A stretch of DNA of 64,000 nucleotides from a bacterium (GCA_963669175.1 OY769902.1:2400001-2464000), one strand, 5' to 3'; shown: positions 30,562 through 46,328, numbered from the stretch's first letter. Numbers and translations are program-made. Notes: generated by a model not told the origin, from the letters alone.

Positions 30562-30616
30562 TTTATAGAGAAACATAATATATAACTTGATTTATGAGAT
30601 TCAGGTAAATATTCTG

Positions 30617-30661
30617 TCCTAATTCCTAATTCCTAATTCCTAATTCCTAATTCCTAATTCC
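30617..30661. repeat. Heptamer microsatellite (TCCTAAT) x ~6.4
   Basis: Direct reading of the sequence. Confidence 0.95.
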
Positions 30662-30685
30662 AGCCTTTTCATTTTTAATTCTTAA

Positions 30686-31090
30686 TTAACCCAAAACCAG
30701 TACTTTTATCTGGCTTGGCACCAGTGTAATCCCCGGACAGTTTTCGCTCATCCCGTTATGGCCGGTAATGCTGGTCATGCGTTGCGAGGGGGAGCCGCCC
30801 GTGAGAATGGTCAGGCTGCCGAGCGTATGTTCCTGCGGTCCCATCACCATCCCCGACGCTACTCCCATGGCCACACCCGCGTTGTCCCCGTTGGTCATGG
30901 GTACTTCTGTCGCCTGGTTGAAGCTGGGCGTTCCCATGGTCAGTACGGTCATGGAAGCCGTGGGGGGGATGCAGGTCGGTCCCACAGATATATTCGGGTA
31001 AGGGATAGGCATAACCCCGGTCGGACCGGGAGTGTTACACGTATCCGGAAAACCGAGACTCATGCCGCCCATCATGGTTGAATGAAACAT
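30686..31090 (-). CDS. DUF4150 / PAAR-like spike tip protein (TagD-like)
   Basis: MFHSTMMGG...GFPDTCNTP....PIPYPN; TNGDNAGVA.GVASG..MG; R.TS.TGHN; N.PG..L.PSQ.KV. AGAGG RBS supports start 31090 rather than 31216. Confidence 0.88.
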   Translation of the reverse strand: MFHSTMMGGMSLGFPDTCNTPGPTGVMPIPYPNISVGPTCIPPTASMTVLTMGTPSFNQATEVPMTNGDNAGVAMGVASGMVMGPQEHTLGSLTILTGGSPSQRMTSITGHNGMSENCPGITLVPSQIKVLVLG

Positions 31091-31193
31091 GGTATCCTCT
31101 GACTTCAAGTTGTTGTCTACTTCCACGTCCAATGTGTCTGGTCGAAACCCGACAGGAGATCCCCGCCTTCGCGGGGAGTCGGGGCAAACTGCA

Positions 31194-31337
31194 ATGCTCT
31201 CATCCCAGCGACACAAACTGTTGCAGAATCACTGGTGCTCCTTTCATCCCAGCGAAGCAAACTGTCGCAGAATCACTGATGCTCTCATCCCAGCGACACA
31301 AACTGTCGCAGAATCACTGATGCTCTCATCCCAGCGA
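31194..31337. repeat. Tandem 41-44-bp repeat, 3 full units plus a partial
   Basis: Unit ATGCTCTCATCCCAGCGACACAAACTGT(C/T)GCAGAATCACTG starting at 31194, 31235 (variant), 31279 and 31320 (partial); no unique spacers. Confidence 0.9.
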
Positions 31338-31475: not shown

Positions 31476-31585
31476 TATCAACATTGAATGCCATCTCGGC
31501 ATATTCCATTCTTGTCTTTTCATAGTGATCAAAGAATGGCCGATTCTGCGCCAGCCTGCTAAACAGTCAGTCGGGCCAGACAATC

Positions 31586-31610
31586 TCCCGGCCAGGCATG
31601 GCCGGGCTAC
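31586..31610 (-). repeat. GTAG-type REP-like palindrome, copy 2 (inverted)
   Basis: The reverse complement reads GTAGCCCGGCCATGCCTGGCCGGGA, one mismatch from 30481-30505. Confidence 0.7.
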
Positions 31611-31626
31611 CCGCTGGCCAATAATG

Positions 31627-32319
31627 CTACCCCAGGTGAATCTGGTCCGCGTCGATTTTCACATTATGTTCAGCGATGGTGGTGATATCGCCGCCGTGAG
31701 TCGTCAGTTGTTCTTTGACCACGGTATGCTGGTTGCCGGCGTGGGTCTCGTCCATTTCTTCGATATCACGTCTGCTCCAGACAAACTTGGCGCTCAGGTC
31801 ACGGACAAATGTATCGACAAATTCCGCCGCAGCTTTCACATGGTCCATCTGGCTACGAACAAAGTTGCCGAAGAAATCAAAACGGTCGAATACGGCGCGT
31901 CCCCTGTCCGCATGCAGCGTCAGCTCATCGCTGGTCACCTGGATCTGTTCACTGGCGGCAATGGAAACAGCTTGCGCGGAAGACAACTCCAGGTCGCCGG
32001 CATCGGTATGCAGATGCGCCCCGGTCGGGAAACGCAACAGAGCAGGATCGGTTTCCGATTCACGTTCCAGCACGGCAAGTACGAAGTTCGGTTCACCTGT
32101 GCTGATGAGTACCGTATCGCCCTCGGACGGTTGCAACAGGCAGCTTGCAGCGAGGTAACATTTGCCGATACCCGCATCGGTACGCACCAGGAAAAGTCCG
32201 TTTTCATGCCCGATAACAGTACCGTGTTCCAGCCGTACGACTGTCTGTGCCGGAGTCGTGAGGATCGCATCCATGAGCGTGTCCTCCTTGTCTATCGAAA
32301 GGTTGTTCTGGTCGTTCAT
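31627..32319 (-). CDS. DUF3540 protein (TagC-like T6SS accessory)
   Basis: AASCLLQPSEGDTVLI...FVLAVLER signature; C-terminal KIDADQIHLG. Confidence 0.88.
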   Translation of the reverse strand: MNDQNNLSIDKEDTLMDAILTTPAQTVVRLEHGTVIGHENGLFLVRTDAGIGKCYLAASCLLQPSEGDTVLISTGEPNFVLAVLERESETDPALLRFPTGAHLHTDAGDLELSSAQAVSIAASEQIQVTSDELTLHADRGRAVFDRFDFFGNFVRSQMDHVKAAAEFVDTFVRDLSAKFVWSRRDIEEMDETHAGNQHTVVKEQLTTHGGDITTIAEHNVKIDADQIHLG

Positions 32320-33371
32320 GAGTTCACCTCAAAATCTTCTGCTTTCTGCAACTCTTTGTTGGTGCCCAGCGCCATGTTCTTGTTGGAACCATCCCAGATT
32401 GTTTTGTCCTGCTTGATGCGGTGCAGGTTGGCACGGTTCAGCTTGGTTTTGCTCAGGTTTGCGCCGGACAGGTCCGAATGTGACATATCCGCGTATTCCA
32501 TGTTACAGCCGCTGAAATTGGTGTTGCTGCACAGCGCAAGTTTTATCTGTGCCTGGTACAGGTTCGTACCGGAAAAATCAGCCGTAGTCAGGTCCGCTTC
32601 GCCCAGGCTCACACTTGGCAGGTCAGCGTTTTTCAACGAAGCGCCTTTCATTTTGCATCCGTGAAAAACAACAGCTTTACCCTTGGCATCATCGAAGGTT
32701 GCGCCTTCCAGATTACTCTCGATGAAATTCGCCTGTTGAATCGTTGCCCCGGTAAAAACAGCGCCTGAGAAGTTGGCTTTATGGGCCTGAACCATCCAGA
32801 AACGGTTGTCGCTGAAATCATAACCGGACAGGTCCATTTTGTTCAGAACGGTACGGTCATAGGTACAATGATCCAACACCAGGCCGTCTGTCACAGCCTT
32901 GTAAAAAACGGTACGTTTCAGATCGGCTTTCAGGAATTGCGTGTTGGTCAAAATGGTTTTAAAGAAAACGGCAAAGTACGCGTCGGTTTCCTCGAATATG
33001 GCATCAGTCAGATCCGCCTTGCCGAAATTGGTATGATGTGTTTTTGACTTGGTGAAGTTCGCGCCGACAAGGTTGGCCTTGACCAGGTTGGTCAGGCGCA
33101 GGTTCGAACGTCTGAAGCTGGCGCGTGGCGCGTTCATCTTGAACCAGTTTGCCTTCTCCAAATCAACATCTTCAATAATCGCTTCGGTCAGGTCGCATTT
33201 CCGGAAGGCTGCTCCTTTGATCTTTGATCCGGACAGGTTCGCACCGGTCAGGTTGCAGCTCATGAACGCCGCTCCGGTCAGGTCCATCCCGGATAAATCC
33301 ATCCCGGTCAAATCCTGCTTTTCGACAAAATCCCCTTCCCGGGTGATTTCCATGATCTCTTCGCGGGTCAT
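32316..33371 (-). CDS. Pentapeptide-repeat protein (TagB-like)
   Basis: Almost entirely A(D/N)(L/F)xx repeats; 4-nt overlaps with both neighbours. Confidence 0.92.
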   Translation of the reverse strand: MTREEIMEITREGDFVEKQDLTGMDLSGMDLTGAAFMSCNLTGANLSGSKIKGAAFRKCDLTEAIIEDVDLEKANWFKMNAPRASFRRSNLRLTNLVKANLVGANFTKSKTHHTNFGKADLTDAIFEETDAYFAVFFKTILTNTQFLKADLKRTVFYKAVTDGLVLDHCTYDRTVLNKMDLSGYDFSDNRFWMVQAHKANFSGAVFTGATIQQANFIESNLEGATFDDAKGKAVVFHGCKMKGASLKNADLPSVSLGEADLTTADFSGTNLYQAQIKLALCSNTNFSGCNMEYADMSHSDLSGANLSKTKLNRANLHRIKQDKTIWDGSNKNMALGTNKELQKAEDFEVNS

Positions 33372-36300
33372 GATTTCTCCTCCCCGGATGGCAACAGATC
33401 CGTACGACCGTCCAACTTGGTCATTTTCAGGTTCGCCCCCTTGAAATTGGTATCGCCAACCTTGGCGCTCATAAACTCAGAACCGTACAGGTTGGCATTG
33501 GACAGATCCGCGTTGGTAAGTGTCGCTTTCCTGAACGAGCCCAGGTGGATATTCGCGCCTTTCAGATCTGCCCCGGTCAAATCGCTCTTGGGAAACTTGG
33601 TCGCCGGGGCCGGGATAGCGCCGAACTTTGCACCAGGCATGCGTACCGTATCAAAAGTCGTGTTCTTCATTTTCGAGCCGGTGAAATCCGCGTCGGGCAG
33701 ATCGCAATGACGCCAATGCGCCTTGTTCAGCGTGATGCCGGTAAAATCCGGTTTCTTCAGCTCGGATTCACCGCCGATACGGCTGTTGAACATATCCGCG
33801 CCCTTGAAAGACACCGTCTCGCCCTGGGTATTCCAGATCAGGGTTTTGTGCATGGTCGCCTTGTCAAAGACCACTTTATCCATCTTGCTCTGGAACAGTT
33901 TTGCACCGCTGATATCGCCCTCGCTGAAGTTGGATTCAGCGAAATCGGCGTTGGTCAGGAGCGCCTTGGGCACCTTTGCCTTGGTGAAGTTGACCTTTTT
34001 GCAGGTCGCGCCGTCAAAAATGGCTGACGTGGCATCGGCTTCTGAGAAATTGGCTTCAGTCAGGTCGGCATCCTTGAAGATGGCGCGTGTCGCCTTGGTC
34101 TTGGACAGGTTCGCGCCGGGCATTTTCGCTTTCATAAAGACAGCGCTTTCAATCGAGGCGCCTGCCAGGCTTGCCCCGGTCAAGTCCGCTTCCAGCGCTT
34201 TGGCCTTGGTCAGGTCAGCGCCATCCAGCTTGGTGTTCTGCAGGTTGGTATTCAGCAGTTTGCCGTTTTTCATGTCCGCGCCGGAAAGGTCCAGGTTAGA
34301 CAGATCCAGGTTGCTCATCTGGCGTCCGGCCAGGCTTTTACCATCCTTGTGCATCTGGATGACATCTTCACGGGTCAACGGGCCGCAATCATTCAAATCC
34401 TTGCCATGTTTGGCTGCAAGCGCCACAGCCCACTCCGGAAGCGGCAACTTCCCGCCGCCTTTTTCCTTCAAGGCTTTCATGTTGGCCAGCTTGGCCATGC
34501 CCTTGTCGTGACGATCTTTCGATTTCGCCAGCAGGGCGGCGTGTTTGTCAGCCTGGGCGTCTATTTTCGCTTCCAGATCAGGTGTCAGCTTGCCGTGTTT
34601 TTTCAACGAGGCTTTCACCTGCTTGACATTGTCTTCGCTTCCTTTCTTGAGTGCGGCGAAGGGATCATGATCCTTGGGCGGCGGTTGCTTTGCTGCTGCC
34701 AGCATTTTGTCCGCGTCCACTGCGCCGTGCTTCGATACCGCTTTCTTGATATGTTCATCGGTTTGATCACGTTTGGCGGCAAGGGCGGATTTCAGCGCAT
34801 CCCCCTGTTTCTTCATATCTGCTATCGTGTAATCCGCTACGGCTTTCGGTCCGGCAGCACGCACTTCTGGTGGGGGAGTGTTCAGCTTCAGGGTCACCGG
34901 GTTGACCGGCTTCTGCCCATGCGCCGCGATCAGCTTCTGTTTCAGTTGCGGGGGAACCTTGTCATTCTTGAGCATCTCTTCGAAGAAAGATTTCTTTTCA
35001 GCCTTGGCCGCAGCCTTCTTGGTAGCTGCCTTGGCCTGCAACGCCTGTCCTTTTGCCGCCACTTTGCTCATTTTATCGATGGATTTGCTCATCCGTGCGA
35101 ATGAAGCCCTGACCTTCTTCTTATTGACCGGCACATGCGGTGCAATTTCATCTTTCACTTTCATTGTGGTTTCAAAGGAGGCTGAAATTCCTGCCAGCAC
35201 TCCAGCCATTTTCGCTGCCAGCGCCTGGGGATCGAAATTGGGATCCGGTTTGGAAAAGTTGAGACTGAGCAATTGATCCTTTTTCGCTTCCAGTTTTGCT
35301 TTTACCTCAGCGACTTTGACTTTGATATCTTCCGCGTCCTTCTTCGCAGCTTCTATCTTTTCCATGTCGATATCAACCGCACGATCCAGCTTTTTACGCA
35401 AGGCCGCCAGGTATTCTTCCATGGGTTTGGCTGGATCGGCCTGGCTTTCACAGTTCATATGAATGACAGCCACATCCAGCGCTTCGCTGTCCATAACTTC
35501 GGCCATGCCACGGCTGATCAGGATGCCCCGCTCATGATGAGGGAACAGCCAGACCGTGTCCATGTCCATCTTGATTTCCTTATACAGGAAAGGCGCATCG
35601 GCCGGCACAGGATGCGGCGCTTCCGTCTGGTCCGGGGTCTGGAATACGAAAATGCGCGGACGGATGCGTGGGACATTACCACCAACCACCGGTTTGTCCG
35701 GGTGCATACGGATACATTCGAACGGTTCGCCACCTTTCAGATAACCGGGCAACCACTGATCCGTAGGGGCGGCATTGAAGAAGGTCCAGTCCATATCTTC
35801 CGGGTAATAGGGGAAGCGTGTCCTGAACCAGGTATTATCATAGGTACCCAGTTTTTTCTGACGATAGGGATGCATGAAATCAAGCGGGGTGAATAGCGCC
35901 GGATCGGGTTTGTCCGAGGGCGCGCCGATCAGACGTCCGGGCAATTCAACATTGGGCAATGGAAGCAGTTGTTTATCGTTGCCCACATCCACCGGGACAG
36001 TTCCCTTGCCCATCATGTTTCGGGCATCTTCCGGCCCACCAAAAGCATGGGCCGCATCAACCGGCATTTCCGTAAATGGTTCAGGGTCCGTGATTACTGT
36101 AACACCAGCCGTATCCTTCCAATAGCGATCACCGAAAACCTGGAGTTTCTTCTCTACCGGTCCGAACCGGAATTCGACTTCCGATGCCGGAACCGGGGTT
36201 CCGCCGGTTGCATAGCAGTTGCCCTTGACCAAGACTTCGGCGGTCGTTTTCGGCATGCCATGATCCAGGGGGGAATCCGGGATCTCAGCAGGGACCAGCT

Positions 36301-36442
36301 TCCACAAATCCTGTTCCTGTAGCAGAGTCTTGGGGTCATCAAAGGCAAAGAAAACCAGGTGGCTGATGACCATATAGTGCTTATCCTGAATACCGAAATA
36401 GTTCAACAGGATGGACTGATCGTTTTCTTTGATGACTTTCAT
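33368..36442 (-). CDS. DUF2169 T6SS adaptor fused to a Lys/Ala-rich linker and pentapeptide repeats (TagAB-like)
   Basis: DHGMPK..AEVLV.G; VFGDRYW; AFGG; GTYD..W...RFP..P.D.DW.FFN.AP.DQ; MDTVWLFP; C-terminal ~300 aa of pentapeptide repeats. Confidence 0.9.
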   Translation of the reverse strand: MKVIKENDQSILLNYFGIQDKHYMVISHLVFFAFDDPKTLLQEQDLWKLVPAEIPDSPLDHGMPKTTAEVLVKGNCYATGGTPVPASEVEFRFGPVEKKLQVFGDRYWKDTAGVTVITDPEPFTEMPVDAAHAFGGPEDARNMMGKGTVPVDVGNDKQLLPLPNVELPGRLIGAPSDKPDPALFTPLDFMHPYRQKKLGTYDNTWFRTRFPYYPEDMDWTFFNAAPTDQWLPGYLKGGEPFECIRMHPDKPVVGGNVPRIRPRIFVFQTPDQTEAPHPVPADAPFLYKEIKMDMDTVWLFPHHERGILISRGMAEVMDSEALDVAVIHMNCESQADPAKPMEEYLAALRKKLDRAVDIDMEKIEAAKKDAEDIKVKVAEVKAKLEAKKDQLLSLNFSKPDPNFDPQALAAKMAGVLAGISASFETTMKVKDEIAPHVPVNKKKVRASFARMSKSIDKMSKVAAKGQALQAKAATKKAAAKAEKKSFFEEMLKNDKVPPQLKQKLIAAHGQKPVNPVTLKLNTPPPEVRAAGPKAVADYTIADMKKQGDALKSALAAKRDQTDEHIKKAVSKHGAVDADKMLAAAKQPPPKDHDPFAALKKGSEDNVKQVKASLKKHGKLTPDLEAKIDAQADKHAALLAKSKDRHDKGMAKLANMKALKEKGGGKLPLPEWAVALAAKHGKDLNDCGPLTREDVIQMHKDGKSLAGRQMSNLDLSNLDLSGADMKNGKLLNTNLQNTKLDGADLTKAKALEADLTGASLAGASIESAVFMKAKMPGANLSKTKATRAIFKDADLTEANFSEADATSAIFDGATCKKVNFTKAKVPKALLTNADFAESNFSEGDISGAKLFQSKMDKVVFDKATMHKTLIWNTQGETVSFKGADMFNSRIGGESELKKPDFTGITLNKAHWRHCDLPDADFTGSKMKNTTFDTVRMPGAKFGAIPAPATKFPKSDLTGADLKGANIHLGSFRKATLTNADLSNANLYGSEFMSAKVGDTNFKGANLKMTKLDGRTDLLPSGEEKS

Positions 36443-36480: not shown

Positions 36481-39270
36481 CTAGAGCTTGGCCGTTACGG
36501 TATCAACTGTTTTGAGACTTACTTCGGCTTCATGTGTAAGCAACGTCGCCACACGTTGTGTCAGCGCTTCCATCTCTTGCTGCATTTCGCTGGTTTGTTG
36601 CTTGATCAGGTCAACATCCTGCCGTAACGCATGGATTTCCTGACCGCTTTCCATGATTCTCTCAAAGATGGTAAAGGAATGCAGACGGGAAGCCTCTCCT
36701 TTCGAAACCTCTTGGTTTGCCTCGGTGACAATTGGGCTCAGGTCTGAGGCGGCGCCATTCATCTGGCTCTCTTCTTCGGTCAGCTCGTCAATGGCTCCGG
36801 CTACTGTATCCTTTTCACCATCGGCAGTCGTTGTGGCTTCGGCCAGCCTGGTGTTGAGTTCGTTGATTTCCTGCTGCATCTCATCAATCTTTTCGCTGGT
36901 TTCATGCATCTTTTCATGAGCAGCATGAACATCCTCTTTTTCAAACTTCATTTCCTTGAAGTCAAATTTGTATTCATTGGCAAAACCGCTTACCATTTTG
37001 AGAAAATGCCCGAGATTTACACGTTCTTCCAGCGCACCCACGAAAGCAAATTCATTAAGAATCACTATCTTTATATAGACACCGCAGTGTATGGTAAACT
37101 CACCTTTGGTGTTGATGATAACGCCACGTTTTTCGGCCTCTTCTTCTTCCTCATCTTCGTCTTCGTCTTCGTCTTCGTCTTCTTCCTCCTCGTCATCATC
37201 ATCGTCGTCGTCGTCATCATCATCATCATCATCGCCATCATCGCCACCGTCGTCATCACCACCGTCGTCATCGCCGCCGTCGTCGTCGCCACCGTCGTCA
37301 TCGCCACCGTCGTCATCGCCGCCGTCGTCATCGCCGCCGTCGTCATCGCCGCCGTCGTCATCGCCGCCGTCGTCATCGCCGCCGTCGTCATCGCCGCCGT
37401 CGTCATCACCGCCGTCGTCATCGCCGCCGTCGTCATCACCGCCGTCGTCACCTTCGTCGCCGCCACCGCCGTCATCGCCGCCGTCGTCATCGTCGCCGTC
37501 GTCATCGCCACCGTCGTCATCGCCACCGTCACCACCTTCGTCGCCGCCACCGCCGTCACCGTCTCCATCATCCCCGGGGTTATCCAAGCTCCCTTCATCG
37601 TCATCATCTTCCGGGGCTGTGGTATCCATGGCCGAGACACTTTGATTTGACGGTTTATCATAAGCTCCTTGTGCAGGTGAAGCATTATCTGGACTGGAGT
37701 CGGAATCGTCGTCATCTCCTCGCGGATCGAATTTGTAGCCGATGGTCATGAATGTCTTCTGGTTGGGGACATGGAGGTGCATATGTTGGGAGCCCTCTTT
37801 GTCCTCCATGTGCATTTCATTTCCCGATCCTGTTTTCATCTTGCCCTGGGTCTGGTTGTCACCGGTGACCATACTGGCTGTTTCCGGGTTGGGCACCGTG
37901 CCAAGGATTACTGGTTTATCGGGATTACCGTCGATAAATCCTATTGTTACTTCGGTATCTTTGTGGAGTGGGAAATGCCAGCCGTGATCTGATCCTGCGT
38001 ACGGTTGCATCATTCGTAAATAACAACTTGCTTTCCCGCCGCTGAGTCCTGACTGATCAAAGGGCATTTTTACCTTGTAGCGTCCCTGCTCATCCAGTTC
38101 CGCATATTTCCCGCTTCCGGCAGCATCAATCTTTGCCTGAATTGTTCCATATACCCTGGTTGCATCTGTTTTCTTTTCAGGACGAAACTGCACTTCTGCC
38201 GGGATTGCGGTAAAACGGCAACTGAAGCGCTGTTTCTGCTCGCCGTCGCCATCATTCACGCTGACTCCGTCCAGTAGGTGGATAGCATGGCTTCCTTCCA
38301 GATGGACATCAGTGACCATATAGCTCCGGTTCATGTCCTCCCGGAAGTGATCAAACAGGGTGAAGGTAAAACCGGTACGGATTCCTGTTGCTGTGCTTTC
38401 GCCATGATAGAGGTCGCGACGACACAACCATTCTTCACGTCGGATCCTGGCCAGACGATTGCCTTGATCAGGGGTCTTAAAATTCTCGCCATATGAGTAC
38501 ACCATCCCCATTCCGGCCGCATCAATAGCTGATTCGGCTGTCAGGTCCAGCAACGGGGTTTCGTAGTTATACCCCTTGAGCTGAACTTTGCCCGGGATGA
38601 GACGACGCTTGTGACGGAAATTGAGGATTACCTGCTCACGTTGGAGTGTGTCCATCCCTGAAGGGGGGGAGTAGCGCAGTTGAGGCGTCTGGGCAACCGG
38701 CTTGTGAGCAATGCGGGTGTCGGTGAAAACAACACGCTCAACCGGACCATCCTGCTCGAAGAAATAATAAATGCCTTCAAACTCAAGCCATCTGTGCAGG
38801 AAATGCAGGTGGCTTTCATTGTACTGGCAAACATATTCATACGTTGGATACTCATTTTGCAGTCGGATGTCGTAATCCTGACGGGTGAATTTTGCGTCTT
38901 TCAGGATATCTTCCAGAATCTGCTTGATGGATTTGTTGAGAAAGATCTGGTTGTGGCGTGTATTGGCCAACCACCAGAGACGTGGAACAAGCTGTACTTC
39001 ATAGAGGTATTTGTCCTTCAATTCCCTGAGATGTAACGCAGAAGCGGTGATGCCATGATAGTGAATATCTTCTGTCGCTGTCTTGATTGTGATCGTGGCA
39101 TGCTGATTTACCACCGAATCCAAGTCTATATCCGGATTGTCAGAGATCAATGTGAGCGTGAACTCGTACGGCACAGAGAGCGCTTCACGCCCTTTCAGGT
39201 CAACGACTGTAAACGTGTTGGCTGGCAGTTTCCCGACGGAAAAATCAAATATTTTATCAGTACTCAGCAC
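36481..39270 (-). CDS. vgrG: VgrG/TssI spike protein 3 with Asp/Gly/Glu-rich insertion and heptad tail
   Basis: G.EALS.PY.F; QYNESHLHF..RWLE.EGIYYFF; YNYETP; ELDEQGRYKV..PFD; MQPYAG...HFPL...TEV...F..G.PD.P.I.G. Confidence 0.92.
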   Translation of the reverse strand: MLSTDKIFDFSVGKLPANTFTVVDLKGREALSVPYEFTLTLISDNPDIDLDSVVNQHATITIKTATEDIHYHGITASALHLRELKDKYLYEVQLVPRLWWLANTRHNQIFLNKSIKQILEDILKDAKFTRQDYDIRLQNEYPTYEYVCQYNESHLHFLHRWLEFEGIYYFFEQDGPVERVVFTDTRIAHKPVAQTPQLRYSPPSGMDTLQREQVILNFRHKRRLIPGKVQLKGYNYETPLLDLTAESAIDAAGMGMVYSYGENFKTPDQGNRLARIRREEWLCRRDLYHGESTATGIRTGFTFTLFDHFREDMNRSYMVTDVHLEGSHAIHLLDGVSVNDGDGEQKQRFSCRFTAIPAEVQFRPEKKTDATRVYGTIQAKIDAAGSGKYAELDEQGRYKVKMPFDQSGLSGGKASCYLRMMQPYAGSDHGWHFPLHKDTEVTIGFIDGNPDKPVILGTVPNPETASMVTGDNQTQGKMKTGSGNEMHMEDKEGSQHMHLHVPNQKTFMTIGYKFDPRGDDDDSDSSPDNASPAQGAYDKPSNQSVSAMDTTAPEDDDDEGSLDNPGDDGDGDGGGGDEGGDGGDDDGGDDDGDDDDGGDDGGGGDEGDDGGDDDGGDDDGGDDDGGDDDGGDDDGGDDDGGDDDGGDDDGGDDDGGDDDGGDDDGGDDDGGDDDGGDDGDDDDDDDDDDDDDDEEEEDEDEDEDEDEEEEEAEKRGVIINTKGEFTIHCGVYIKIVILNEFAFVGALEERVNLGHFLKMVSGFANEYKFDFKEMKFEKEDVHAAHEKMHETSEKIDEMQQEINELNTRLAEATTTADGEKDTVAGAIDELTEEESQMNGAASDLSPIVTEANQEVSKGEASRLHSFTIFERIMESGQEIHALRQDVDLIKQQTSEMQQEMEALTQRVATLLTHEAEVSLKTVDTVTAKL
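37140..37560. repeat. Coding low-complexity tandem repeat (15-bp unit encoding GGDDD, then poly-Asp and ED tracts)
   Basis: Repeated GCCGTCGTCATCGCC on the + strand; translates on the - strand as (GGDDD)n-Dn-(ED)n-En inside vgrG3. Confidence 0.95.
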
Positions 39271-39273
39271 TTT

Positions 39274-41592
39274 TTATCCCTCCTCGAGAATTTCTGCCGT
39301 AACCGAATGGAGTGCACTCATTGCGCTCTGCAATGTTGTCATCAATTGCTGCATCTCTGCCATTTGTGACTTGATCGTACTCACTGCTGTTTTCTGGCCG
39401 GCTACTTCTGTGTTCATTTCAGCCATTTCATCAACACAGGTTTTCATACCGGCCTCATTTATCCGGATTGTGTCCAGTGAGTCGGCTATCGTAGTCTTAA
39501 GATCATTCAGATATTCCTTTGTGCCATCGATTTTTTCCTTCGCTTGCGTCATCTTGGTTTCCGCGCCCGCAACCAGGGAACGTGAACCTTCCAGCCGTTC
39601 TTCCGTCTCAGCCACTGTCTGTTTGATCCCATCAATCTTGCTGGTTGATTCGGAAATCGTTTCTTTCGTTTCGCTGATATTTGTTTTTAATCCATTTACT
39701 TTATTATGAAGTTCATTCATGTCGGTGTGTACCCATTTATTGTCCGTATGGCTGGTGCATTCCAGCTCATCACGGCGTCCTCCAAGGAAACGCAGCATGA
39801 ACGGGGTGTTGATTTTTTCCTCAAAGCCACCGATAAAGACCATCTTTTCAATGAGGGCCAGGCTGTTTTTAGTAGCGGCTTCAATCTCCAGCTTGGCGCC
39901 CGCCCCAAGGGTGATGCCATGTTTTTTCAAGTCAGGCGCAAGGTCAAAATTCTTATGCAGGTTGTAGAACCACTTGGCAATGGTCTCTAGGGCTTCCCCT
40001 TGCGCCTGGGATGACTGTTGATCTGTATACATTCCCGGCGGAGGATCGTTGGGAGCGCCGATGCGTAAAAAAGAACTTGTCGCCGGGACATGGAACTGTA
40101 TGCGTTCTTCGCCCTGCTTATCTTCGAAATGCAGCTCGTTCCCTGAAGATGACCGTAGCCGTGAACGTGTCTGGTTGTCTGAATCAACCAGGCTGGGAGA
40201 TCGAGGATTTGGTGCGCTTCCGGCGATGATAGGCCGATCCGGGTCGCCATTGGTGAAAGCAATCAGGACTTCCGCGCCACGATGCAGCGGCATGTGCATG
40301 CCATGTCCGGAACCACCATAAGGTTGAATCCGTCGCAACCAGGTACTCGCTTTACCATCCTTACGGTCGGACAGATCGAATGGGAAAATGACTTTGTAAC
40401 GGCCCTGTTCATCCAGTTCCGCGTATTGACCGCTTCCGGCAGAATCGATCCAGCCCTGTATGGTGCCGTTGATCCTGGCTTTCGGGGTTTTTATCTCCGG
40501 ACGGAACTGAATATCGGATGGAATCGCCGTAAACGTATTCCTGTAATAAGGCGCCTTTTCAACTTCTGAAAGTTCGTTCTTCAGTCCGGCCACAAAGTAA
40601 GCGACCTGGTCACCTTCCATGTGGATGTCAGTTGTCAGGAAAGAACGATTCAAAGCATCACGATAGTGTCCGGTCATTTCAAAAACGAAACCGGGCAGGA
40701 TATAGGGGACAGAACTTTCCCCGTAGTACGTATCCTTTCTACAGGCCAGCTCTTCGGCACGGATCTTCGCCAAGCGAGTCCCTTCGTCCGGGGTTAGGAA
40801 GTACTCCCCGTAAGTAGTCATCTCGCCACGCCCGTTCTGATCCACATCGGCTTCCCCGATCATCGGGAGCGTCGGTTTTTCAAAGTTGTAGTCGCGGAGA
40901 GTTACTTTCTGAGGAATGAGTCGTTTTCGCTGACTGAAAACTCGAACGACCTCATCACGATGCAGGTTATCCAGGCCAGATGGGGTGGAGTATATAACCT
41001 TCGTGCCTTCTGATGCAGGCGCATGAGCTGTGCGTGTGTCGGTAAAGATGACCTTTTCGGTATCCTGACTGTGGTCGAAATAGTAGTAGATACCTTCACG
41101 TTCGCACCAGCGATTGATAAAATTGAAATGGCTTTCGCCATATTGACAGACAAACTTGTGACCGGGATGATCCTGCTGCAAGCGGAAATCATAGGCAGAT
41201 GATTCAATACGTGCGTCTTTCAGCACTCCGGACAACATTGTCTTCACATCCTGATCGAGGAATACCTGGTTGTGATGGGTATGGGACAACCACGAAAATC
41301 GCGGGGCCAGTTCCACGGTAAACTGGGCATATTCCTGGACAGTACGGTCATATTCCGCATGGGTTACGATCCCGTGGAAAGTCACATCCTGGTCGTCTCG
41401 ATGGATTATAAAACGAGCCGGACGATTGACCAGTTTTTCCGGGTCCATCGTGGCATCCGTAGTCAACAGGTGAATGGTGAAATGATACGGCTTGGATAAT
41501 GCCGCTTCTCCTGTGAAACGGACCACGAAAAAACTGTCATCTGTTCCGCTGCCTGAATAGAAGCTGAATTTTCTGTTGACAAGAATACTCAT
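39274..41592 (-). CDS. vgrG: VgrG/TssI spike protein 2 with heptad tail
   Basis: CQYGESHFNF..RW.EREGIYYYF; DYNFEKP; ELDEQGRYKVIFPFD; QPYGG..HGMHMPL..GAEV...F..GDPDRPII.G. Confidence 0.93.
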   Translation of the reverse strand: MSILVNRKFSFYSGSGTDDSFFVVRFTGEAALSKPYHFTIHLLTTDATMDPEKLVNRPARFIIHRDDQDVTFHGIVTHAEYDRTVQEYAQFTVELAPRFSWLSHTHHNQVFLDQDVKTMLSGVLKDARIESSAYDFRLQQDHPGHKFVCQYGESHFNFINRWCEREGIYYYFDHSQDTEKVIFTDTRTAHAPASEGTKVIYSTPSGLDNLHRDEVVRVFSQRKRLIPQKVTLRDYNFEKPTLPMIGEADVDQNGRGEMTTYGEYFLTPDEGTRLAKIRAEELACRKDTYYGESSVPYILPGFVFEMTGHYRDALNRSFLTTDIHMEGDQVAYFVAGLKNELSEVEKAPYYRNTFTAIPSDIQFRPEIKTPKARINGTIQGWIDSAGSGQYAELDEQGRYKVIFPFDLSDRKDGKASTWLRRIQPYGGSGHGMHMPLHRGAEVLIAFTNGDPDRPIIAGSAPNPRSPSLVDSDNQTRSRLRSSSGNELHFEDKQGEERIQFHVPATSSFLRIGAPNDPPPGMYTDQQSSQAQGEALETIAKWFYNLHKNFDLAPDLKKHGITLGAGAKLEIEAATKNSLALIEKMVFIGGFEEKINTPFMLRFLGGRRDELECTSHTDNKWVHTDMNELHNKVNGLKTNISETKETISESTSKIDGIKQTVAETEERLEGSRSLVAGAETKMTQAKEKIDGTKEYLNDLKTTIADSLDTIRINEAGMKTCVDEMAEMNTEVAGQKTAVSTIKSQMAEMQQLMTTLQSAMSALHSVTAEILEEG

Positions 41593-41625
41593 GGGTGTTT
41601 CCTTGTATTCTAACAGTCCACCGGA

Positions 41626-43893
41626 TCAGTCGCGTTCAAACAGCGCTGCGGTTTCCATATTGGTAACGTAGTTGTCAAAACCACATTCAAATGTTTCCTG
41701 TTTGATCGCATCGGCCTGCACTCGCATTGTCTTTATCTGTTCCTTCATTTCAGCCGTGCTGTCTTTCAATCCCCTGGCCAGCGAAACATTTTCGATTACT
41801 TTTAATTCTTCATCTGAGATCTTGGACATAAGCTGTTGAATTTCTTCAACAGTTCCAGCCAGTGAATCCTTGGTCTCGGACATTTCCTGCTTTGCTGCGA
41901 CAATTTTGTCTCGCTGACCATTCACGAGTTCTTTGGTATCAGCAATCTTATCTTTCACACCTACGACACTCTGGCGTGCCGCGGCTACTTTTTCTTCTGT
42001 TTCGGCCACCTTTGTCTTCAAGTCATTGATTTTATTTTCCATCTGGGTGATGTGTTTTTCCACACCCTTCAGATTCATCGTGTGCGGACTCAGGTAACTG
42101 CTGGTAATGCCAAGCGAATACTTGCCGCCAATAAGAACGCCCAGTTCGCCATTGGTGATGATTTTCTGTTCGAATCCGACACACCCCATAAAATTGTTGC
42201 CCAGGATAATTTCGTTGGACAGACCGGCATAGACATTGAGGTTCAAACCAGCAGTCATCTTGAAGCCGTCTGTATCCACCAGCGTCCAGTAAGGGGCGGC
42301 AGTTTCCCCGCCTTCCGATGCCGGGGGGGGAGGATCGTTGGGAGCGCCCATGCGGACAAACGACTTTTTCGCCGGGACATGCATCTGGATACGTTCGCTG
42401 CCTTCCTTATCCTCGAAATGCATTTGCGTCTGGTTGCCGGTTTGAATCACCGATTTTGTCTGGTTTTCTCCCTTCACCTGGGAAGGAGTGGAGGGATTAT
42501 TCACCGCTCCGGCGATGATGGGACGGTCCGGATCACCATCGGTGAAGGTGACCAGCACCTCAGTGCCCTTATGCAAGGGGAAGTGCATGCCGTGGTTGCT
42601 GCCGGTATAAGGTTGCGCCATGCGGATATAACAACTGGCCTTACCATCAGAACGCCCGGACAGGTCAAACGGCATCACAATCTTGTACCGTCCCTGTTCA
42701 TCCAGCTCTGCATACTGTCCACTGCCAGCAGCATCAATCTTCGCCTCGATCACACCCTGAATCTTCGGCTTGGGAGTTTTGCACTCGGTACGGAACTGCA
42801 AGTCACTCTCAATCGCATGGAACACATTCTTGTAATAGGGATTCTTCTCGTGTTCACTCAATCCCTGCTTGATTCCTGCGATCAGGTATCCCGCCTGGTC
42901 GCCGGACATCTCCATGCGAATCGTCAGGTATTTCCGGTTCAGGTTATCACGATTATGCTTGGCAAGGGTGAAAGTGAATCCGGGACGGATGAACGGGACT
43001 GTGCTGGCCGCATGATAGGTGTTTTTCCTGCATTGATAGCATTCGGCGCGAATTTTTGCCAGACGTTTGCCTGAATCCGGTGTTTTGTAGTGTTCGCCAT
43101 AGGTGATAATCTCGCCCAGACCATGATCGTCTACCGACGCTTCCTGGATCAGGAGGTCATCCGGCTTTTCATAGTTGTATTCCACCAACTGCACCTTGGC
43201 GGGAGTCATGTCACGACGCCAGGTGAACTGCTTTACAACCTCATCACGATGCAAAGTGTCCAGACCTGAAGGGGGGAGATAGGTGATGGTGCCGCCCTGG
43301 GGCATGTCCACATGGGCTATCTTTGTATCGGTAAGGATCAGCTTCTCTTCGCTGTCACCCTGCTCGAAGTAATAGTATATCCCTTCTCGCTCGATCCAGC
43401 GATGGACAAAATTGAAATGAGTCTCGTTGTACTGGCAGATATACGGGAAGGTATCATGGTTGCCCTGCAAACGGATATCAAAATCCTTGCTGGTTAAACC
43501 GCCATCCTTCAGGACTTTTTCCAGTATCCCCTTTACATCCTTGTCCAGGAATACCTGGTTGTGATGGGTTAATTGCAGCCACCAGAACTTGGGAACCAGC
43601 ACAGCTTCGTAGAAATAATACCCATTAAACTCACGTTCGAGGGTAAACTCAATTACAATTCCATGATAGGGAACATCCTCGCCGTCTTTACGATGAACAG
43701 TGAAAGTCGCCTTGCGCTGAACAACGCTGTCCAGATCAATATCACCGTTGGTGGAAACGAGTTGGATGGTAAACTGGTACGGTTCCGATAATCCTTCACG
43801 ACCTGTGAAACTGACCACCGCAAAGGTGTCCTCAGTCAACGCAGGTGATTTGGATGAGAATGAGAAGCGCATTTGGGACGTGTTTTCCAGCAT
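41626..43893 (-). CDS. vgrG: VgrG/TssI spike protein 1 with heptad tail
   Basis: Same VgrG motifs. Start placed at ATG 43893 (GGGGAG RBS, collinear with the paralogues); the ORF extension to 44280 overlaps tetR and is not credible. Confidence 0.93.
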   Translation of the reverse strand: MLENTSQMRFSFSSKSPALTEDTFAVVSFTGREGLSEPYQFTIQLVSTNGDIDLDSVVQRKATFTVHRKDGEDVPYHGIVIEFTLEREFNGYYFYEAVLVPKFWWLQLTHHNQVFLDKDVKGILEKVLKDGGLTSKDFDIRLQGNHDTFPYICQYNETHFNFVHRWIEREGIYYYFEQGDSEEKLILTDTKIAHVDMPQGGTITYLPPSGLDTLHRDEVVKQFTWRRDMTPAKVQLVEYNYEKPDDLLIQEASVDDHGLGEIITYGEHYKTPDSGKRLAKIRAECYQCRKNTYHAASTVPFIRPGFTFTLAKHNRDNLNRKYLTIRMEMSGDQAGYLIAGIKQGLSEHEKNPYYKNVFHAIESDLQFRTECKTPKPKIQGVIEAKIDAAGSGQYAELDEQGRYKIVMPFDLSGRSDGKASCYIRMAQPYTGSNHGMHFPLHKGTEVLVTFTDGDPDRPIIAGAVNNPSTPSQVKGENQTKSVIQTGNQTQMHFEDKEGSERIQMHVPAKKSFVRMGAPNDPPPPASEGGETAAPYWTLVDTDGFKMTAGLNLNVYAGLSNEIILGNNFMGCVGFEQKIITNGELGVLIGGKYSLGITSSYLSPHTMNLKGVEKHITQMENKINDLKTKVAETEEKVAAARQSVVGVKDKIADTKELVNGQRDKIVAAKQEMSETKDSLAGTVEEIQQLMSKISDEELKVIENVSLARGLKDSTAEMKEQIKTMRVQADAIKQETFECGFDNYVTNMETAALFERD

Positions 43894-44143: not shown

Positions 44144-44755
44144 ATGCCCAAAGCGTTTTCGGAAGAAGAACAAAACCGGATCAGGGAAGCGTTGTTGGCA
44201 TCAGGGCGGGAACGGTTCACCCGGTTTGGGGTGCGTAAGACTACAGTCGATGAGCTGACCGCGGATGCCGGGATCGCCAAGGGGACGTTTTACCGTTTTT
44301 ACGAGTCCAAGGAACTGTTATACCTCGAGGTTCTCGAAGAAGCGGAAGAACGGATTCGTGGCGGCCTGATGCAGGGGATACGTGACGGAGCAGGGGTGGG
44401 TTATGTGTTGTCGGCATTTCTGCATGGTTTGGAGCAGGAACCGCTTTTCAGCCATATCGTGCAGCCGGGTGAGATGGAATACCTGGTCAGTCGAGTCGGC
44501 GCGGAACGGTTGCAGGTTCACATGAAACGCGACCGTGAAGAGCTGCTGGACATGGTCATAGAAATGCAGCATCGCGGCGCTGTCAGTGAGAACATCGAGG
44601 CGGAAGTGCTGGTCGAGTTGCTGCGCGCCCTGATCGCGATTCCCTTGCTGCAACCACGCATGAACCTCAGTAACAAAGCCGAAGTCTATCAACTGCTGAC
44701 GTCTGCCCTTGAGGCTGGACTGGGACCGGGAGGCGACCATGCTGACCGTGAATGA
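44144..44755 (+). CDS. TetR/AcrR family regulator
   Basis: F...GVRKTTVDEL...AGIAKGTFYRFYESKE.L helix-turn-helix. Confidence 0.95.
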   Translation: MPKAFSEEEQNRIREALLASGRERFTRFGVRKTTVDELTADAGIAKGTFYRFYESKELLYLEVLEEAEERIRGGLMQGIRDGAGVGYVLSAFLHGLEQEPLFSHIVQPGEMEYLVSRVGAERLQVHMKRDREELLDMVIEMQHRGAVSENIEAEVLVELLRALIAIPLLQPRMNLSNKAEVYQLLTSALEAGLGPGGDHADRE

Positions 44756-45593
44756 CCTCAGCTATACCTATCCTGGGAACGACGCTGAAACCCTGCACGG
44801 GCTGAGTTTCGCCATCCCGAAAGGGGAGATTTTCGGCTTCCTGGGACCGTCCGGGGCCGGGAAGAGCACCACGCAGAACCTGTTGATCGGGCTGTTGAAG
44901 GGGTATCGTGGGCATGTCAATTTTGCCGGACGGGAACTCTCCGACTGGAAAAATGACCTCTACACACGTGTCGGCGTGGTCTTCGAGGTGCCCAACCTGT
45001 TCGGCAAGTTGACCGCGCTGGAGAACCTTCGTTTTTTCGGGGCGTTGTATGGAAGGATCTCCAACGATCCGCTTGAATTGCTCGAACTGGTTGGTCTGAA
45101 AGAGGACGCGGACAAGAAGGTGTCCAGCTTCTCCAAGGGCATGCGGATGCGGTTGAATTACTGCCGTGCATTTCTGCATGATCCGGAATTCCTCTTTCTG
45201 GATGAACCGACAGCCGGGTTGGACCCTGCCAATGCTCGCATTATCCGTGATCATATTCTCCGGCAGAAAGCTACGGGCAAGACCATTTTCCTGACTACTC
45301 ACAACATGCACGACGCTGATCAGTTGTGTGATCGGGTGGCGTTTATCGTGGATGGCAGGCTGGAGACCATCGCCTCGCCACGTGAGCTGAAGCTTTCCCA
45401 CGGCACCCGTCGAGTCCGGGTGGAACACCGTGTTAATGGAGGGACAGCCAGCAGGGAATTCGAGTTGGATAAACTTGCGGATAACGGCGGCTTCCTGGAC
45501 ATCCTGCGTGCGGGGAAAGTTGAGACCATTCATACCCTTGAGGCCACACTGGAAGACATTTTTATGGATGTCACCGGCAGGAGGCTGACATGA
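44739..45593 (+). CDS. ABC exporter ATP-binding subunit
   Basis: GPSGAGKST; signature FSKGM; Walker B FLDEP; H-loop TTHNM. GGAGG before ATG 44739. Confidence 0.95.
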   Translation: MLTVNDLSYTYPGNDAETLHGLSFAIPKGEIFGFLGPSGAGKSTTQNLLIGLLKGYRGHVNFAGRELSDWKNDLYTRVGVVFEVPNLFGKLTALENLRFFGALYGRISNDPLELLELVGLKEDADKKVSSFSKGMRMRLNYCRAFLHDPEFLFLDEPTAGLDPANARIIRDHILRQKATGKTIFLTTHNMHDADQLCDRVAFIVDGRLETIASPRELKLSHGTRRVRVEHRVNGGTASREFELDKLADNGGFLDILRAGKVETIHTLEATLEDIFMDVTGRRLT

Positions 45594-46318: not shown

Positions 46319-46328
46319 GGGGGCAACC

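What the first reader, a model, noticed from the sequence alone, without database searches (positions are those of the whole stretch)
36481..43893. Three divergent VgrGs with length-matched heptad tails: candidate obligate heterotrimeric, elongated spike
Seen: three tandem vgrG paralogues share the gp27/OB core, then diverge. Counting by hand from an alignable Gly-led segment (DGFKM / HGITL / RGVII) to the stop gives 214, 215 and 215 aa. Each ends in about 21 uninterrupted 7-residue units that mostly start with a hydrophobic residue (e.g. INDLKTK-VAETEEK-VAAARQS; ISETKET-ISESTSK-IDGIKQT; IDEMQQE-INELNTR-LAEATTT). None has a recognisable toxin domain or the usual long gp5 needle end. Known: VgrG spikes are trimers. 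Inference: conserved length and register despite low identity suggests selection to co-assemble 1:1:1 into a long three-chain coiled coil or 7-residue beta-solenoid, i.e. a spike extension or molecular ruler. I do not know of a description of this architecture.
Basis: partly seen in the sequence, partly recalled or inferred. Interest (0 to 1): 0.85.

Follow-up and report, generated by a model that had tools for sequence, protein, structure and literature searches.

The report
Three VgrG spikes with heptad tails
Three neighbouring genes for the tip protein of a bacterial injection machine all end in a tail of the same length built from 7-residue repeats, but this fixed length is a general property of a widespread, so far undescribed subfamily of such tips and is not a sign that the three must join into one mixed spike.

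Summary
Three tandem vgrG genes have tails of 214, 215 and 215 aa. Each tail is 7 octapeptide Val-Gly repeats, a short connector and about 21 heptads, in a register far beyond chance.

The obligate 1:1:1 heterotrimer reading is not supported. The genes sit in front of a Class III Tvp loading set: DUF2169-pentapeptide, pentapeptide, DUF3540 and a PIPY/PAAR-like protein (PMC13373197). The same tail occurs in many Desulfobacterota, Syntrophales, Acidobacteriota and other genomes.

- Of 46 arrays in front of a Tvp set, 33 are single, 5 double, 7 triple and 1 quintuple.
- Of five single-copy genomes checked, four have only one VgrG, and those four have a sheath gene.
- Tail length falls into heptad-spaced classes of about 208, 215 and 222 aa across 79 tails.
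- Arrays look like repeated local duplications.

Equal length is therefore a family constant.

The fold is unresolved. Gly-rich relatives model as a gp5-like beta-prism. The window's tails look like an alpha coiled coil.

Verdict: a new variant of a known kind, of moderate interest.

The parts
41626..43893 (-). vgrG-A, 755 aa: gp27/OB core, 20-aa linker, 214-aa tail
   Evidence: Pfam Phage_GPD 3.3e-73 and Phage_base_V 7.6e-09. Translation. The start matches orthologue P0005.
41626..42270 (-). tail of VgrG-A (214 aa plus stop): 7 octapeptide repeats, connector, about 21 heptads
39274..41592 (-). vgrG-B, 772 aa: core, 40-aa linker, 215-aa tail
   Evidence: Pfam Phage_GPD 5.6e-68 and Phage_base_V 6.4e-10. 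Translation.
39274..39921 (-). tail of VgrG-B (215 aa plus stop). The AF2 monomer makes residues 61-214 one helix.
36481..39270 (-). vgrG-C, 929 aa: core, acidic linker of about 190 aa, 215-aa tail
   Evidence: Pfam Phage_GPD 5e-79 and Phage_base_V 8.7e-09. Translation.
36481..37128 (-). tail of VgrG-C (215 aa plus stop)
37129..37713 (-). Asp/Gly/Glu low-complexity linker of VgrG-C, between the core and the tail
   Evidence: Translation. 15- and 45-nt tandem repeats at 37238-37530. The length differs in the sister species.
33368..36442 (-). tvpAB: DUF2169 fused to pentapeptide repeats, 1024 aa
   Evidence: Pfam DUF2169 1.3e-76 and Pentapeptide 1.3e-41. About 240 aa shorter in its central helical part than in relatives.
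32316..33371 (-). tvpB: stand-alone pentapeptide-repeat protein, 351 aa
   Evidence: Pfam Pentapeptide 1.4e-51
31627..32319 (-). tvpC: DUF3540, 230 aa
   Evidence: Pfam DUF3540 1.4e-46
30686..31216 (-). PAAR-like DUF4150 / PIPY protein. The open frame is 176 aa; the likely start is at 31090 (134 aa).
   Evidence: Pfam Tox-PAAR-like 2.8e-29, with the domain starting at residue 51 of the frame. The sequence reads ...GVMPIPYPN....

Best explanation
What the genes are. The three genes are local tandem paralogues of a widespread, apparently undescribed subfamily of T6SS spike proteins. This subfamily works with a Class III Tvp loading set: TvpAB (DUF2169-pentapeptide), TvpB, TvpC (DUF3540) and a PIPY/PAAR-like cap.

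Anatomy. Each protein has a gp27/OB core, a disordered linker of free length, and a C-terminal needle module. The module holds seven 8-residue Val-Gly repeats, a short connector and about 21 heptads.

Why the lengths match. The module's length is a family constant that changes only in steps of one heptad (about 208, 215 or 222 aa). Organisms with a single VgrG keep it as well. So it is set by something every member shares. Inferred: a trimeric needle with a flush end for the PIPY cap, of a length that fits the TvpAB/TvpB cage. It is not set by a need to match two other chains.

What the three most likely do (inferred). They give this organism's only T6SS three alternative spikes. All are loaded by one shared Tvp/PIPY set and differ in tail surface. 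Mixed trimers are possible, as for other VgrGs, but are not required.

Fold. Whether the heptad part in this lineage is an alpha-helical trimeric coiled coil (my estimate 0.5-0.6) or a 7-residue triple beta-prism as modelled in Gly-rich relatives (0.3-0.4) is not settled.
For: Shown:
- Locus content matches Class III (sections 8, 10-13 of PMC13373197 read) and synteny type C (section 4 of PMC11883445 read).
- The genome has only these three VgrGs. Its one complete T6SS core cluster lies 2.35 Mb away and holds no vgrG.
- A scan of one genome per species gave 71 loci. My HMM scans found the tail in most of them, nearly always directly upstream of TvpAB-TvpB-TvpC-PAAR-like.
- 79 tails fall into three classes: 207-210 aa (13), 214-219 aa (49) and 222-224 aa (15), plus one each at 201 and 202. 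None lies at 203-206, 211-213 or 220-221.
- Array sizes are 33 single, 5 double, 7 triple and 1 quintuple of 46.
- Four of five single-copy genomes checked have one Phage_GPD match in the whole genome. All four have TssC.
- In the core tree, paralogues of one array mostly group together: window plus sister species (6 rows, support 93), P0011/12/19 (95), L033 (100), L055 (99), L020 (98), L037 (99), L049 (99).
- TvpAB is 1209-1306 aa after heptad-tail VgrGs, with two exceptions: the window genus (1024 aa) and one locus with masked bases (744 aa). After other VgrGs it is 849-957 aa, apart from one split frame of 559 aa.
- Between the two sister species the tails keep their exact length at 41-47% identity in the heptad part.

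Fold evidence:
- The relative L025 gives an AF2 monomer with pLDDT about 80, no helix and no intrachain strands.
- For that model, 14 of 16 structure matches are phage, CIS or T6SS spike or baseplate entries, best Z 5.6.
- Pfam LbR_Ice_bind scores over its cut-off in L025 and L020_1.
- The window tails have a and d hydrophobic and e and g charged.
- The AF2 monomer of the B tail has a single helix at 61-214 with pLDDT about 90.
- The best PDB sequence matches of the window tails are trimeric coiled-coil fibres: EibD at 1.2e-05, reovirus sigma-1, and P22 needle gp26 at 7.5e-04.
Against: - Within arrays the lengths agree more closely than the family spread: L041 215x3, L047 and L082 222x3, L020 215/216/215, L033 217/217/216. 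This is also what co-assembly would predict.
- The core tree cannot tell local duplication from old paralogy with gene conversion. The cores of L020_2/3 and of the three L035 genes are identical while their tails differ.
- No clear link between tail class and TvpAB length was seen within the heptad-tail loci. The 'fit to the cage' step is therefore inference.
- The window's TvpAB lacks about 240 aa of the central part that relatives have. This lineage may work differently.
- A PAAR-like cap on the end of an alpha coiled coil has no precedent that I know of (recalled).
- The structure models are monomers. The B model rests on 6 sequences, and all fold-match Z values are below the tool's own level of trust.
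- Counts of arrays are per locus. Kin are not independent, and some single arrays share a genome with other modules (L018, L019, L027, L039/L063).
Confidence: 0.6

Rival explanations
1. Obligate or strongly preferred A:B:C heterotrimer. The three tails evolved to pair only with each other and form one asymmetric fibre.
For: - Three genes sit in one operon-like array with gaps of 33 and 3 nt.
- The tail lengths are identical while tail identity is only 17-28%.
- The same 214/215/215 is kept in the sister species.
- Triple arrays recur: 7 of 46 arrays, plus a likely triplet P0011/12/19. All three of those proteins report the same longest contig length, 26947.
- Net charge differs between the helical parts: -6, -9 and -19.
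- VgrG heterotrimers are known in other bacteria (passage in PMC6960284).
Against: - 33 of 46 arrays are single.
- Four of five single-copy genomes checked have one VgrG only, and those four have a sheath gene.
- Arrays of 2 and 5 exist, and mixed length classes occur in L038 and L055.
- 215 aa is the family mode whatever the copy number.
- Triplets arose separately in several lineages by the core tree.
- In some arrays the paralogues differ strongly in make-up. L041_2 has 14 near-identical IGQHT-type heptads next to Ala/Glu-rich L041_3. That fits a common fibre poorly.
Confidence: 0.1
2. The tails are themselves the cargo. The amphipathic heptad region would be a membrane-active effector, held in the spike and shielded by the Tvp cage until delivery. 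The three paralogues would be three toxin variants. This follows the idea put forward for Serratia VgrG1.
For: - No effector or immunity gene is evident in the operon. The PIPY protein is only about 134-176 aa with no toxin domain.
- In Serratia the Class III VgrG1 pathway delivers a membrane-depolarising activity with no separate effector found. The authors suggest that a C-terminal stretch could act as an amphipathic helix (Discussion of PMC13373197).
- The window tails are strongly helix-prone and amphipathic.
- The tails diverge much faster than the cores.
Against: - No immunity candidate lies beside any of the three genes.
- The heptad region is net acidic, -6 to -19, which is unlike typical membrane-active peptides (general knowledge).
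- Strict conservation of length points to a structural role.
- Nothing was tested experimentally here or, for this subfamily, in the papers read.
Confidence: 0.15
3. Redundant duplicates with no division of labour: three interchangeable copies kept by chance or for dosage.
For: Copy number varies freely among relatives, at 1, 2, 3 or 5. All copies share one Tvp set.
Against: - The three orthologue pairs are kept intact and separate in both species of the genus, with tails at 47-57% identity and without indels.
- The paralogues differ far more in the tail (17-28% identity) than in the core (45-55%). This argues for distinct, maintained tails.
Confidence: 0.1

Closest known systems
Serratia marcescens Db10 VgrG1 with its Class III Tvp system (Monlezun, Earl and Coulthurst, EMBO J 2026, PMC13373197; abstract and sections 8, 10-13 read)
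   Same: The accessory genes are the same, in the same order: DUF2169-pentapeptide TvpAB, pentapeptide TvpB, DUF3540 TvpC and a DUF4150 PAAR-like protein. In both, the VgrG has an unusually long C-terminal needle part and no toxin domain. The paper models a 'tip' from residue 542 of VgrG1, which is the position where the tail of VgrG-A starts here.
   Different: - Serratia has one such vgrG, modelled as a plain long beta-prism of 186 A.
- Here there are three copies.
- Here a flexible linker of 20-190 aa precedes the tail.
- Here the tail has 21 heptads with coiled-coil-like make-up.
- Here TvpAB is 1024 aa.
- I could not obtain the Serratia sequence, so whether it belongs to the heptad subfamily is not tested.
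- The paper's appendix tables of prism lengths and its trees of other phyla are supplements that I could not see.
DUF2169 synteny type C and the PIPY domain (Sachar et al., J Biol Chem 2025, PMC11883445; abstract and section 4 read)
   Same: DUF2169 is fused to pentapeptide repeats, with DUF3540 and DUF4150 nearby. The cap protein here carries PIPY in its sequence.
   Different: In the part I read, that paper does not treat the VgrG tail or tandem vgrG copies.
T4 gp5 C-terminal beta-helix and other central spikes (PDB rows 6p20, 6sjl, 9mlp, 8vom, 3vto; repeat rule recalled)
   Same: The first ~57 aa of each tail are 8-residue Val-Gly-type repeats. The heptad part of the Gly-rich relative L025 is modelled as an extended winding chain whose best matches are these spikes (Z 5.6-3.3).
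   Different: The repeat here is 7 residues, not 8. The Z values are low. The window's own heptads have polar or charged residues at the position that is Thr/Ser/Asn in the Gly-rich relatives.
Phage P22 tail needle gp26 and trimeric coiled-coil fibres (EibD, SadA, reovirus sigma-1)
   Same: The sequence profile of the window tails matches them best among solved structures (E 1.2e-05 to 8.3e-04). P22 gp26 is a cell-envelope-piercing needle made largely of a trimeric coiled coil (recalled).
   Different: The matches are weak and typical of coiled-coil composition, so they do not show common descent. gp26 is not fused to a gp27/OB hub.
Heterotrimeric VgrG spikes of Vibrio cholerae and Pseudomonas aeruginosa (as cited in PMC6960284; passage read)
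   Same: Several VgrG paralogues serve one machine and can mix.
   Different: Mixing there is facultative and is not tied to matched tails. No evidence of mixing was obtained here.
Grass antifreeze beta-roll (Pfam LbR_Ice_bind, PDB 3ult) and heads of trimeric autotransporter adhesins (7o23 BpaC, 9u93 CbpF)
   Same: They have 7-residue x-x-N-x-V-x-G-type repeats. Gly-rich relatives score over the Pfam cut-off (53.2 and 35.1 bits against 30) and match these chains (3.1e-10 and 5.9e-07).
   Different: Those are single-chain rolls. The model of L025 shows no intrachain strands. The window tails match 3ult only at E 0.087 and have no such Pfam match.

Membership tests
VgrG / TssI spike protein | gp27-like hub (Phage_GPD) followed by a gp5 OB fold (Phage_base_V) | tested here: met
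   All three genes: Phage_GPD 229.8-266.1 bits (cut-off 30.1) and Phage_base_V 36.1-39.7 bits (cut-off 23.8).
VgrG / TssI spike protein | belongs to a genome with a T6SS core | tested here: met
   TssJ, K, L, M, A, B, C, Hcp, TssE, F, G and a ClpV-like ATPase lie in one cluster at about 4.78 Mb.
Canonical VgrG needle (DUF2345 / long gp5 repeats) | DUF2345 or Gp5_C repeats after the OB fold | tested here: not met
   No such Pfam match at E<=0.01. Only a sub-threshold Gp5_trimer_C match in B (17 bits against 30.9).
Class III Tvp system / DUF2169 synteny type C | DUF2169 fused to a pentapeptide-repeat domain (TvpAB) | tested here: met
   33368-36442: DUF2169 at residues 21-311 plus Pentapeptide.
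Class III Tvp system / DUF2169 synteny type C | separate pentapeptide-repeat protein (TvpB) and DUF3540 protein (TvpC) | tested here: met
   32316-33371 is Pentapeptide at 1.4e-51. 31627-32319 is DUF3540 at 1.4e-46.
Class III Tvp system / DUF2169 synteny type C | DUF4150 (PIPY) PAAR-like protein | tested here: met
   Tox-PAAR-like 101.8 bits (cut-off 31). PIPY is read in the translation.
Class III Tvp system / DUF2169 synteny type C | VgrG with a long beta-prism that replaces TvpC in the complex | not testable with these tools
   No trimer model was obtained. The monomer models disagree between the window (helix) and a relative (extended chain).
Parallel trimeric alpha-helical coiled coil | unbroken heptads with hydrophobic a and d and charged e and g | tested here: met
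   Six tails of the genus: a is V/I/L/M 70%; d is L/M/I/A/V 63%; e is K/E/R 49%; g is E/K/R 55%. The register is beyond chance.
Parallel trimeric alpha-helical coiled coil | helical fold and three-chain assembly | tested here: inconclusive
   The AF2 monomer with 6 sequences gives one helix at 61-214. Position c is as conserved as a and is Gly in 21% of units. Homologous Gly-rich tails cannot be helical. No oligomer model was obtained.
gp5-like triple beta-helix (beta-prism) | Val-x-Gly repeats forming an intertwined three-chain prism | tested here: inconclusive
   The octapeptide part is present in all three. The heptad part is modelled as a spike-like extended chain only in relative L025 (Z<6). 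It was not modelled so for the window.
Obligate heterotrimeric fibre (as laminin or fibrinogen chains) | the different chains always occur together, and no member works alone | tested here: not met
   33 of 46 arrays are single. Four of five single-copy genomes checked have one VgrG in all with TssC present.

The most novel reading that the evidence does not exclude
The heptad tail is a needle whose fold is not fixed. Across one homologous, length-quantised module, some lineages build a 7-residue Val-Gly triple beta-prism and others, such as this one, a trimeric alpha coiled coil. Alternatively the same chain could switch from prism to amphipathic helices on firing. That would make the spike end a spring-like or membrane-active device, with its length counted in heptads to fit the Tvp cage and PIPY cap. 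In organisms with three copies, mixed trimers would then give asymmetric tips.
Probability: 0.15. Interest if true: 0.8.

Novelty: new variant of a known kind. Interest (0 to 1): 0.5.

Why it matters
Class III Tvp systems were defined only in 2025-2026, and why their VgrGs carry long tips is an open point in those papers. This work adds four things.

- A large group of these VgrGs, in mostly uncultured anaerobes, shares a tail whose length is counted in heptads (about 208, 215 or 222 aa). That gives a concrete, measurable constraint for models of how the TvpAB/TvpB cage and the PIPY cap fit the spike.
- The subfamily spans Gly-rich beta-type repeats and coiled-coil-like repeats at constant length. 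This is a rare natural series for studying alpha/beta repeat transitions.
- The tail is joined to the core by a linker that can be 20 to about 700 aa long.
- It removes an attractive but unsupported idea, the obligate heterotrimeric spike.

Tried and rejected
1. Complex prediction of the three tails together (A, B, C, with C as partner). Two jobs with 69-row family alignments failed technically (and 58/60). A third job without alignments ran and returned 'no answer': score 0.06 against a mark of 0.34, with controls not run. This is no evidence either way.
2. Word-index search with the B tail found only the sister-species orthologue.
3. The same search with a 54-tail profile in 'longer' mode found 11 proteins and was crowded by long proteins.
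4. The exhaustive profile search with 6 tails was dominated by unrelated coiled-coil proteins. Only 6 of the 150 listed cover the whole tail in a VgrG-sized protein.
5. Foldseek of the L025 model against the PDB gave 0 matches.
6. ESM Atlas features for the B tail gave only scores of 0.85, below the tool's 0.9 level. Gp5_C and Gp5_trimer_C clusters were among them. I treat this as a lead only.
7. I looked for a link between tail class and TvpAB or TvpB length. TvpB is constant at about 350 aa. TvpAB shows at most a weak trend, confounded by kinship.
8. I compared hydrophobic a/d occupancy and 3.5- against 7-residue periodicity between single-copy and array members. There was no clean separation, and Gly-rich tails can also show 3.5 periodicity.
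9. Three tails with masked residues (L028, L030, L070_1; lengths 194, 179, 185) were dropped from the length histogram. Four VgrGs whose tail start could not be anchored (L021, L031, L068, L079) have no length.
11. I did not verify that P0011, P0012 and P0019 lie on one contig. Only the equal longest-contig length suggests it.
Full report
WHAT IS THERE. On the minus strand lie three vgrG genes head to tail. A is 41626-43893 (755 aa), B is 39274-41592 (772 aa) and C is 36481-39270 (929 aa).

Four further genes follow:
- a DUF2169-pentapeptide fusion, 33368-36442;
- a pentapeptide-repeat protein, 32316-33371;
- a DUF3540 protein, 31627-32319;
- a DUF4150 PAAR-like protein, 30686-31216, with a likely start at 31090. 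Its sequence reads PIPY.

All three VgrGs have Phage_GPD and Phage_base_V. None has a toxin domain or DUF2345.

The genome holds no other VgrG. It has one complete T6SS core cluster 2.35 Mb away: TssJ, K, L, M, A, B, C, Hcp, TssE, F, G and a ClpV-like ATPase, without a vgrG.

The last ~150 aa of each run in one heptad register. Position a holds a strong hydrophobic residue in 15, 20 and 14 of 22 units. In 20000 shuffles each, 0, 0 and 3 reach these values. Cores are 45-55% identical and tails 17-28%.

The first ~57 aa of each tail are seven 8-residue Gly-ending repeats of the usual VgrG kind (sequence).

Between the core (ending ...GAPNDP) and the tail lies a linker of 20, 40 and about 190 aa. 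The linker of C is an Asp/Gly/Glu run encoded by 15/45-nt tandem repeats.

A second species of the genus (G001) has the same three genes with tails of 214/215/215 aa, while its C linker is shorter.

KNOWN CONTEXT. The four downstream genes are the Class III Tvp set of Monlezun et al. 2026 (PMC13373197; sections 8, 10-13 read). They are also synteny type C of Sachar et al. 2025 (PMC11883445; section 4 read).

In Serratia, TvpAB, TvpB, TvpC and the PAAR-like protein form a pre-complex in which VgrG1 later replaces TvpC. VgrG1 is modelled with a very long beta-prism, and Class III VgrGs tend to have long prisms.

The text of that paper has no occurrence of 'coiled', 'helical' or 'heterotrimer'. 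A search for VgrG plus heptad gave 3 unrelated papers. A search for VgrG with coiled-coil, C-terminal extension and heterotrimer gave nothing on such a tail. One paper states in passing that VgrGs can form heterotrimers.

THE TAIL IS A WIDESPREAD FAMILY. An exhaustive profile search with six tails listed four further VgrGs with the whole tail: P0011, P0012, P0019 and P0134. All were confirmed as VgrG by Pfam. The rest of the list were general coiled-coil proteins, some of them phage tail fibres.

A scan of one genome per species gave 71 loci. Most come from Desulfobacterota or Thermodesulfobacteriota, Syntrophales, Syntrophorhabdaceae, Desulfovibrionaceae and Acidobacteriota, with one Deferribacter.

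With my own HMMs of core, tail and tail start, I found the tail in most of these loci. It lies nearly always directly upstream of TvpAB-TvpB-TvpC-PAAR-like.

In the window's own phylum the system is rare. 3 of 41 genomes searched, including the window's own, have a VgrG match. One of them (G036) has a different C-terminus.

LENGTH IS QUANTISED. The 79 measured tails fall into three classes:
- 207-210 aa: 13 tails;
- 214-219 aa: 49 tails;
- 222-224 aa: 15 tails.

One tail each lies at 201 and 202. None lies at 203-206, 211-213 or 220-221. Three tails with masked residues were dropped, and four could not be anchored. The classes are one heptad apart. The window's 214/215/215 is simply the modal class.

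COPY NUMBER VARIES. Of 46 complete arrays in front of a Tvp set, 33 are single, 5 double, 7 triple and 1 quintuple.

Of five genomes with a single array copy that I checked, four have one Phage_GPD match in the whole genome. These are a complete Maridesulfovibrio chromosome, Desulfogranum mediterraneum, Deferribacter abyssi and a second Maridesulfovibrio. All four have the sheath gene. A homotrimer of this tail must therefore be functional.

Lengths mostly agree within arrays: L041 215x3, L047 and L082 222x3, L020 215/216/215, L033 217/217/216. L038 (222/215) and L055 (215/216/215/224/215) mix classes.

In a tree of the cores (105 rows), the paralogues of one array mostly group together. The groups are the window plus sister species, P0011/12/19, L033, L055, L020, L037 and L049. 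Arrays therefore look like repeated local duplications that inherit their length.

One caveat applies. Some arrays have identical cores with different tails (L020, L035), so gene conversion of cores could hide older paralogy.

WHAT SETS THE LENGTH. This step is inference. All members share the PIPY cap and the Tvp cage. A trimeric needle needs a flush end for a cap, and the cage wraps the tip in the Serratia model.

In support, TvpAB is 1209-1306 aa after heptad-tail VgrGs and 849-957 aa after other VgrGs. The exceptions are the window genus at 1024 aa, one masked locus at 744 aa and one split frame of 559 aa.

Against it, I saw no clear dependence of TvpAB length on tail class. The window's TvpAB also lacks about 240 aa of the central helical part.

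FOLD. Many relatives read Phi-x-G-x-x-T-x, with one hydrophobic residue and one Gly per heptad. Examples are L025, L020, L027 and L041_2.

For the Gly-rich relatives the evidence points to a beta structure:
- The AF2 monomer model of the L025 tail (54 sequences) has pLDDT about 80, no helix and no intrachain strands.
- Foldseek found nothing for this model.
- VIA-align listed 16 chains, of which 14 are phage, CIS or T6SS spike or baseplate entries. They include T4 gp5 helix fragments, the EAEC VgrG and the P2 and Mu spikes. All have Z of 5.6 or less, which is below the tool's level of trust.
- Pfam LbR_Ice_bind scores over its cut-off in L025 and L020_1.
- PDB sequence matches go to BpaC, a grass antifreeze protein and CbpF.

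The window's tails lie at the helix-prone end of a continuum, with Gly at 3-5% and E, K, A, Q, L, M and R together at 50-56%. For them the evidence is mixed:
- Positions a and d are hydrophobic and e and g are charged.
- The AF2 monomer of the B tail (6 sequences) is one helix at 61-214.
- The best PDB matches are trimeric coiled-coil fibres, including the P22 needle gp26.
- Against a helix, position c is as conserved as a between the sister species (54% against 52%) and is Gly in 21% of units.

I put an alpha coiled coil at 0.5-0.6 and a beta-prism at 0.3-0.4 for this lineage.

VERDICT. The three genes are a lineage-specific triplication within a new, heptad-quantised subfamily of Class III VgrG spikes. 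Equal tail length is a family constant and is no evidence for 1:1:1 assembly. Mixed trimers remain possible but are not needed. What the three divergent tails distinguish (cargo, target or immunity) is unknown. No effector or immunity gene is visible in the operon, as in the Serratia case.

Noticed in passing
window 37132-37563: The acidic linker of VgrG-C is encoded by 3-, 6-, 12-, 15-, 27- and 45-nt tandem repeats. The best array is 15/45 nt at 37238-37530 with 88-89% matches. The linker is 32 aa shorter in the sister species, so it is probably unstable in length.
   Followed up: partly
window 31090-31627: The gap of about 536 nt between tvpC and the PIPY gene holds no convincing frame. It has three to four direct repeats of 41-47 nt (31192-31339) and a 31-nt inverted repeat (31324-31354 / 31445-31475, 97% complementary). 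It could be a regulatory or repeat element inside the operon.
   Followed up: partly
window 30481-30505 and 31586-31610: A 25-nt GC-rich sequence, itself a hairpin, occurs in inverted orientation on both sides of the PIPY gene (96% complementary, 1080 nt apart).
   Followed up: no
window 30507-30569 and 30603-30679: Two microsatellites lie just downstream of the operon: an 8-nt unit (AAGTTGTA, about 6 copies) and a 7-nt unit (TCCTAAT, about 8 copies).
   Followed up: no
window 26913-30434 (+) and 47127-51305 (-): Two very large proteins with T9SS C-terminal sorting domains flank the region. One has FG-GAP repeats and the other a right-handed beta-helix/NosD. The second lies in a low-GC stretch (0.36 at 48-50 kb, against about 0.5 elsewhere).
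   Followed up: no
window 44144-47054 (+): Upstream of vgrG-A and divergently oriented are a small regulator-like frame and three ABC exporter genes. The regulator-like frame looks TetR-like by eye and was not tested. The exporter genes are ABC_tran and two ABC-2/FLQE3-type permeases.
   Followed up: no
L035 6011-9961: A relative's VgrG of 1316 aa carries a linker of about 700 aa made of TPTQTV-type repeats, at the same position as the acidic linker of VgrG-C and again followed by the tail module. The three vgrG cores in this array are identical while the C-terminal parts differ.
   Followed up: partly
L041 7562-9841: One paralogue of a triple array has 14 nearly identical heptads (IGQHT-L/Q/D-T). 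This suggests recent repeat expansion or homogenisation within a tail of unchanged total length (215 aa).
   Followed up: no
L078 6030-8789 and L080 1561-4455: Two VgrGs have the same tail start but tails of 393 and 383 aa. They represent a further, longer tail form in front of Tvp genes.
   Followed up: no
window 33368-36442 compared with L025 12228-15989: The window's TvpAB aligns with a relative's at both ends (1-416 and 576-1017) but has about 160 aa in the Lys/Ala/Glu-rich centre where the relative has about 405 aa.
   Followed up: partly
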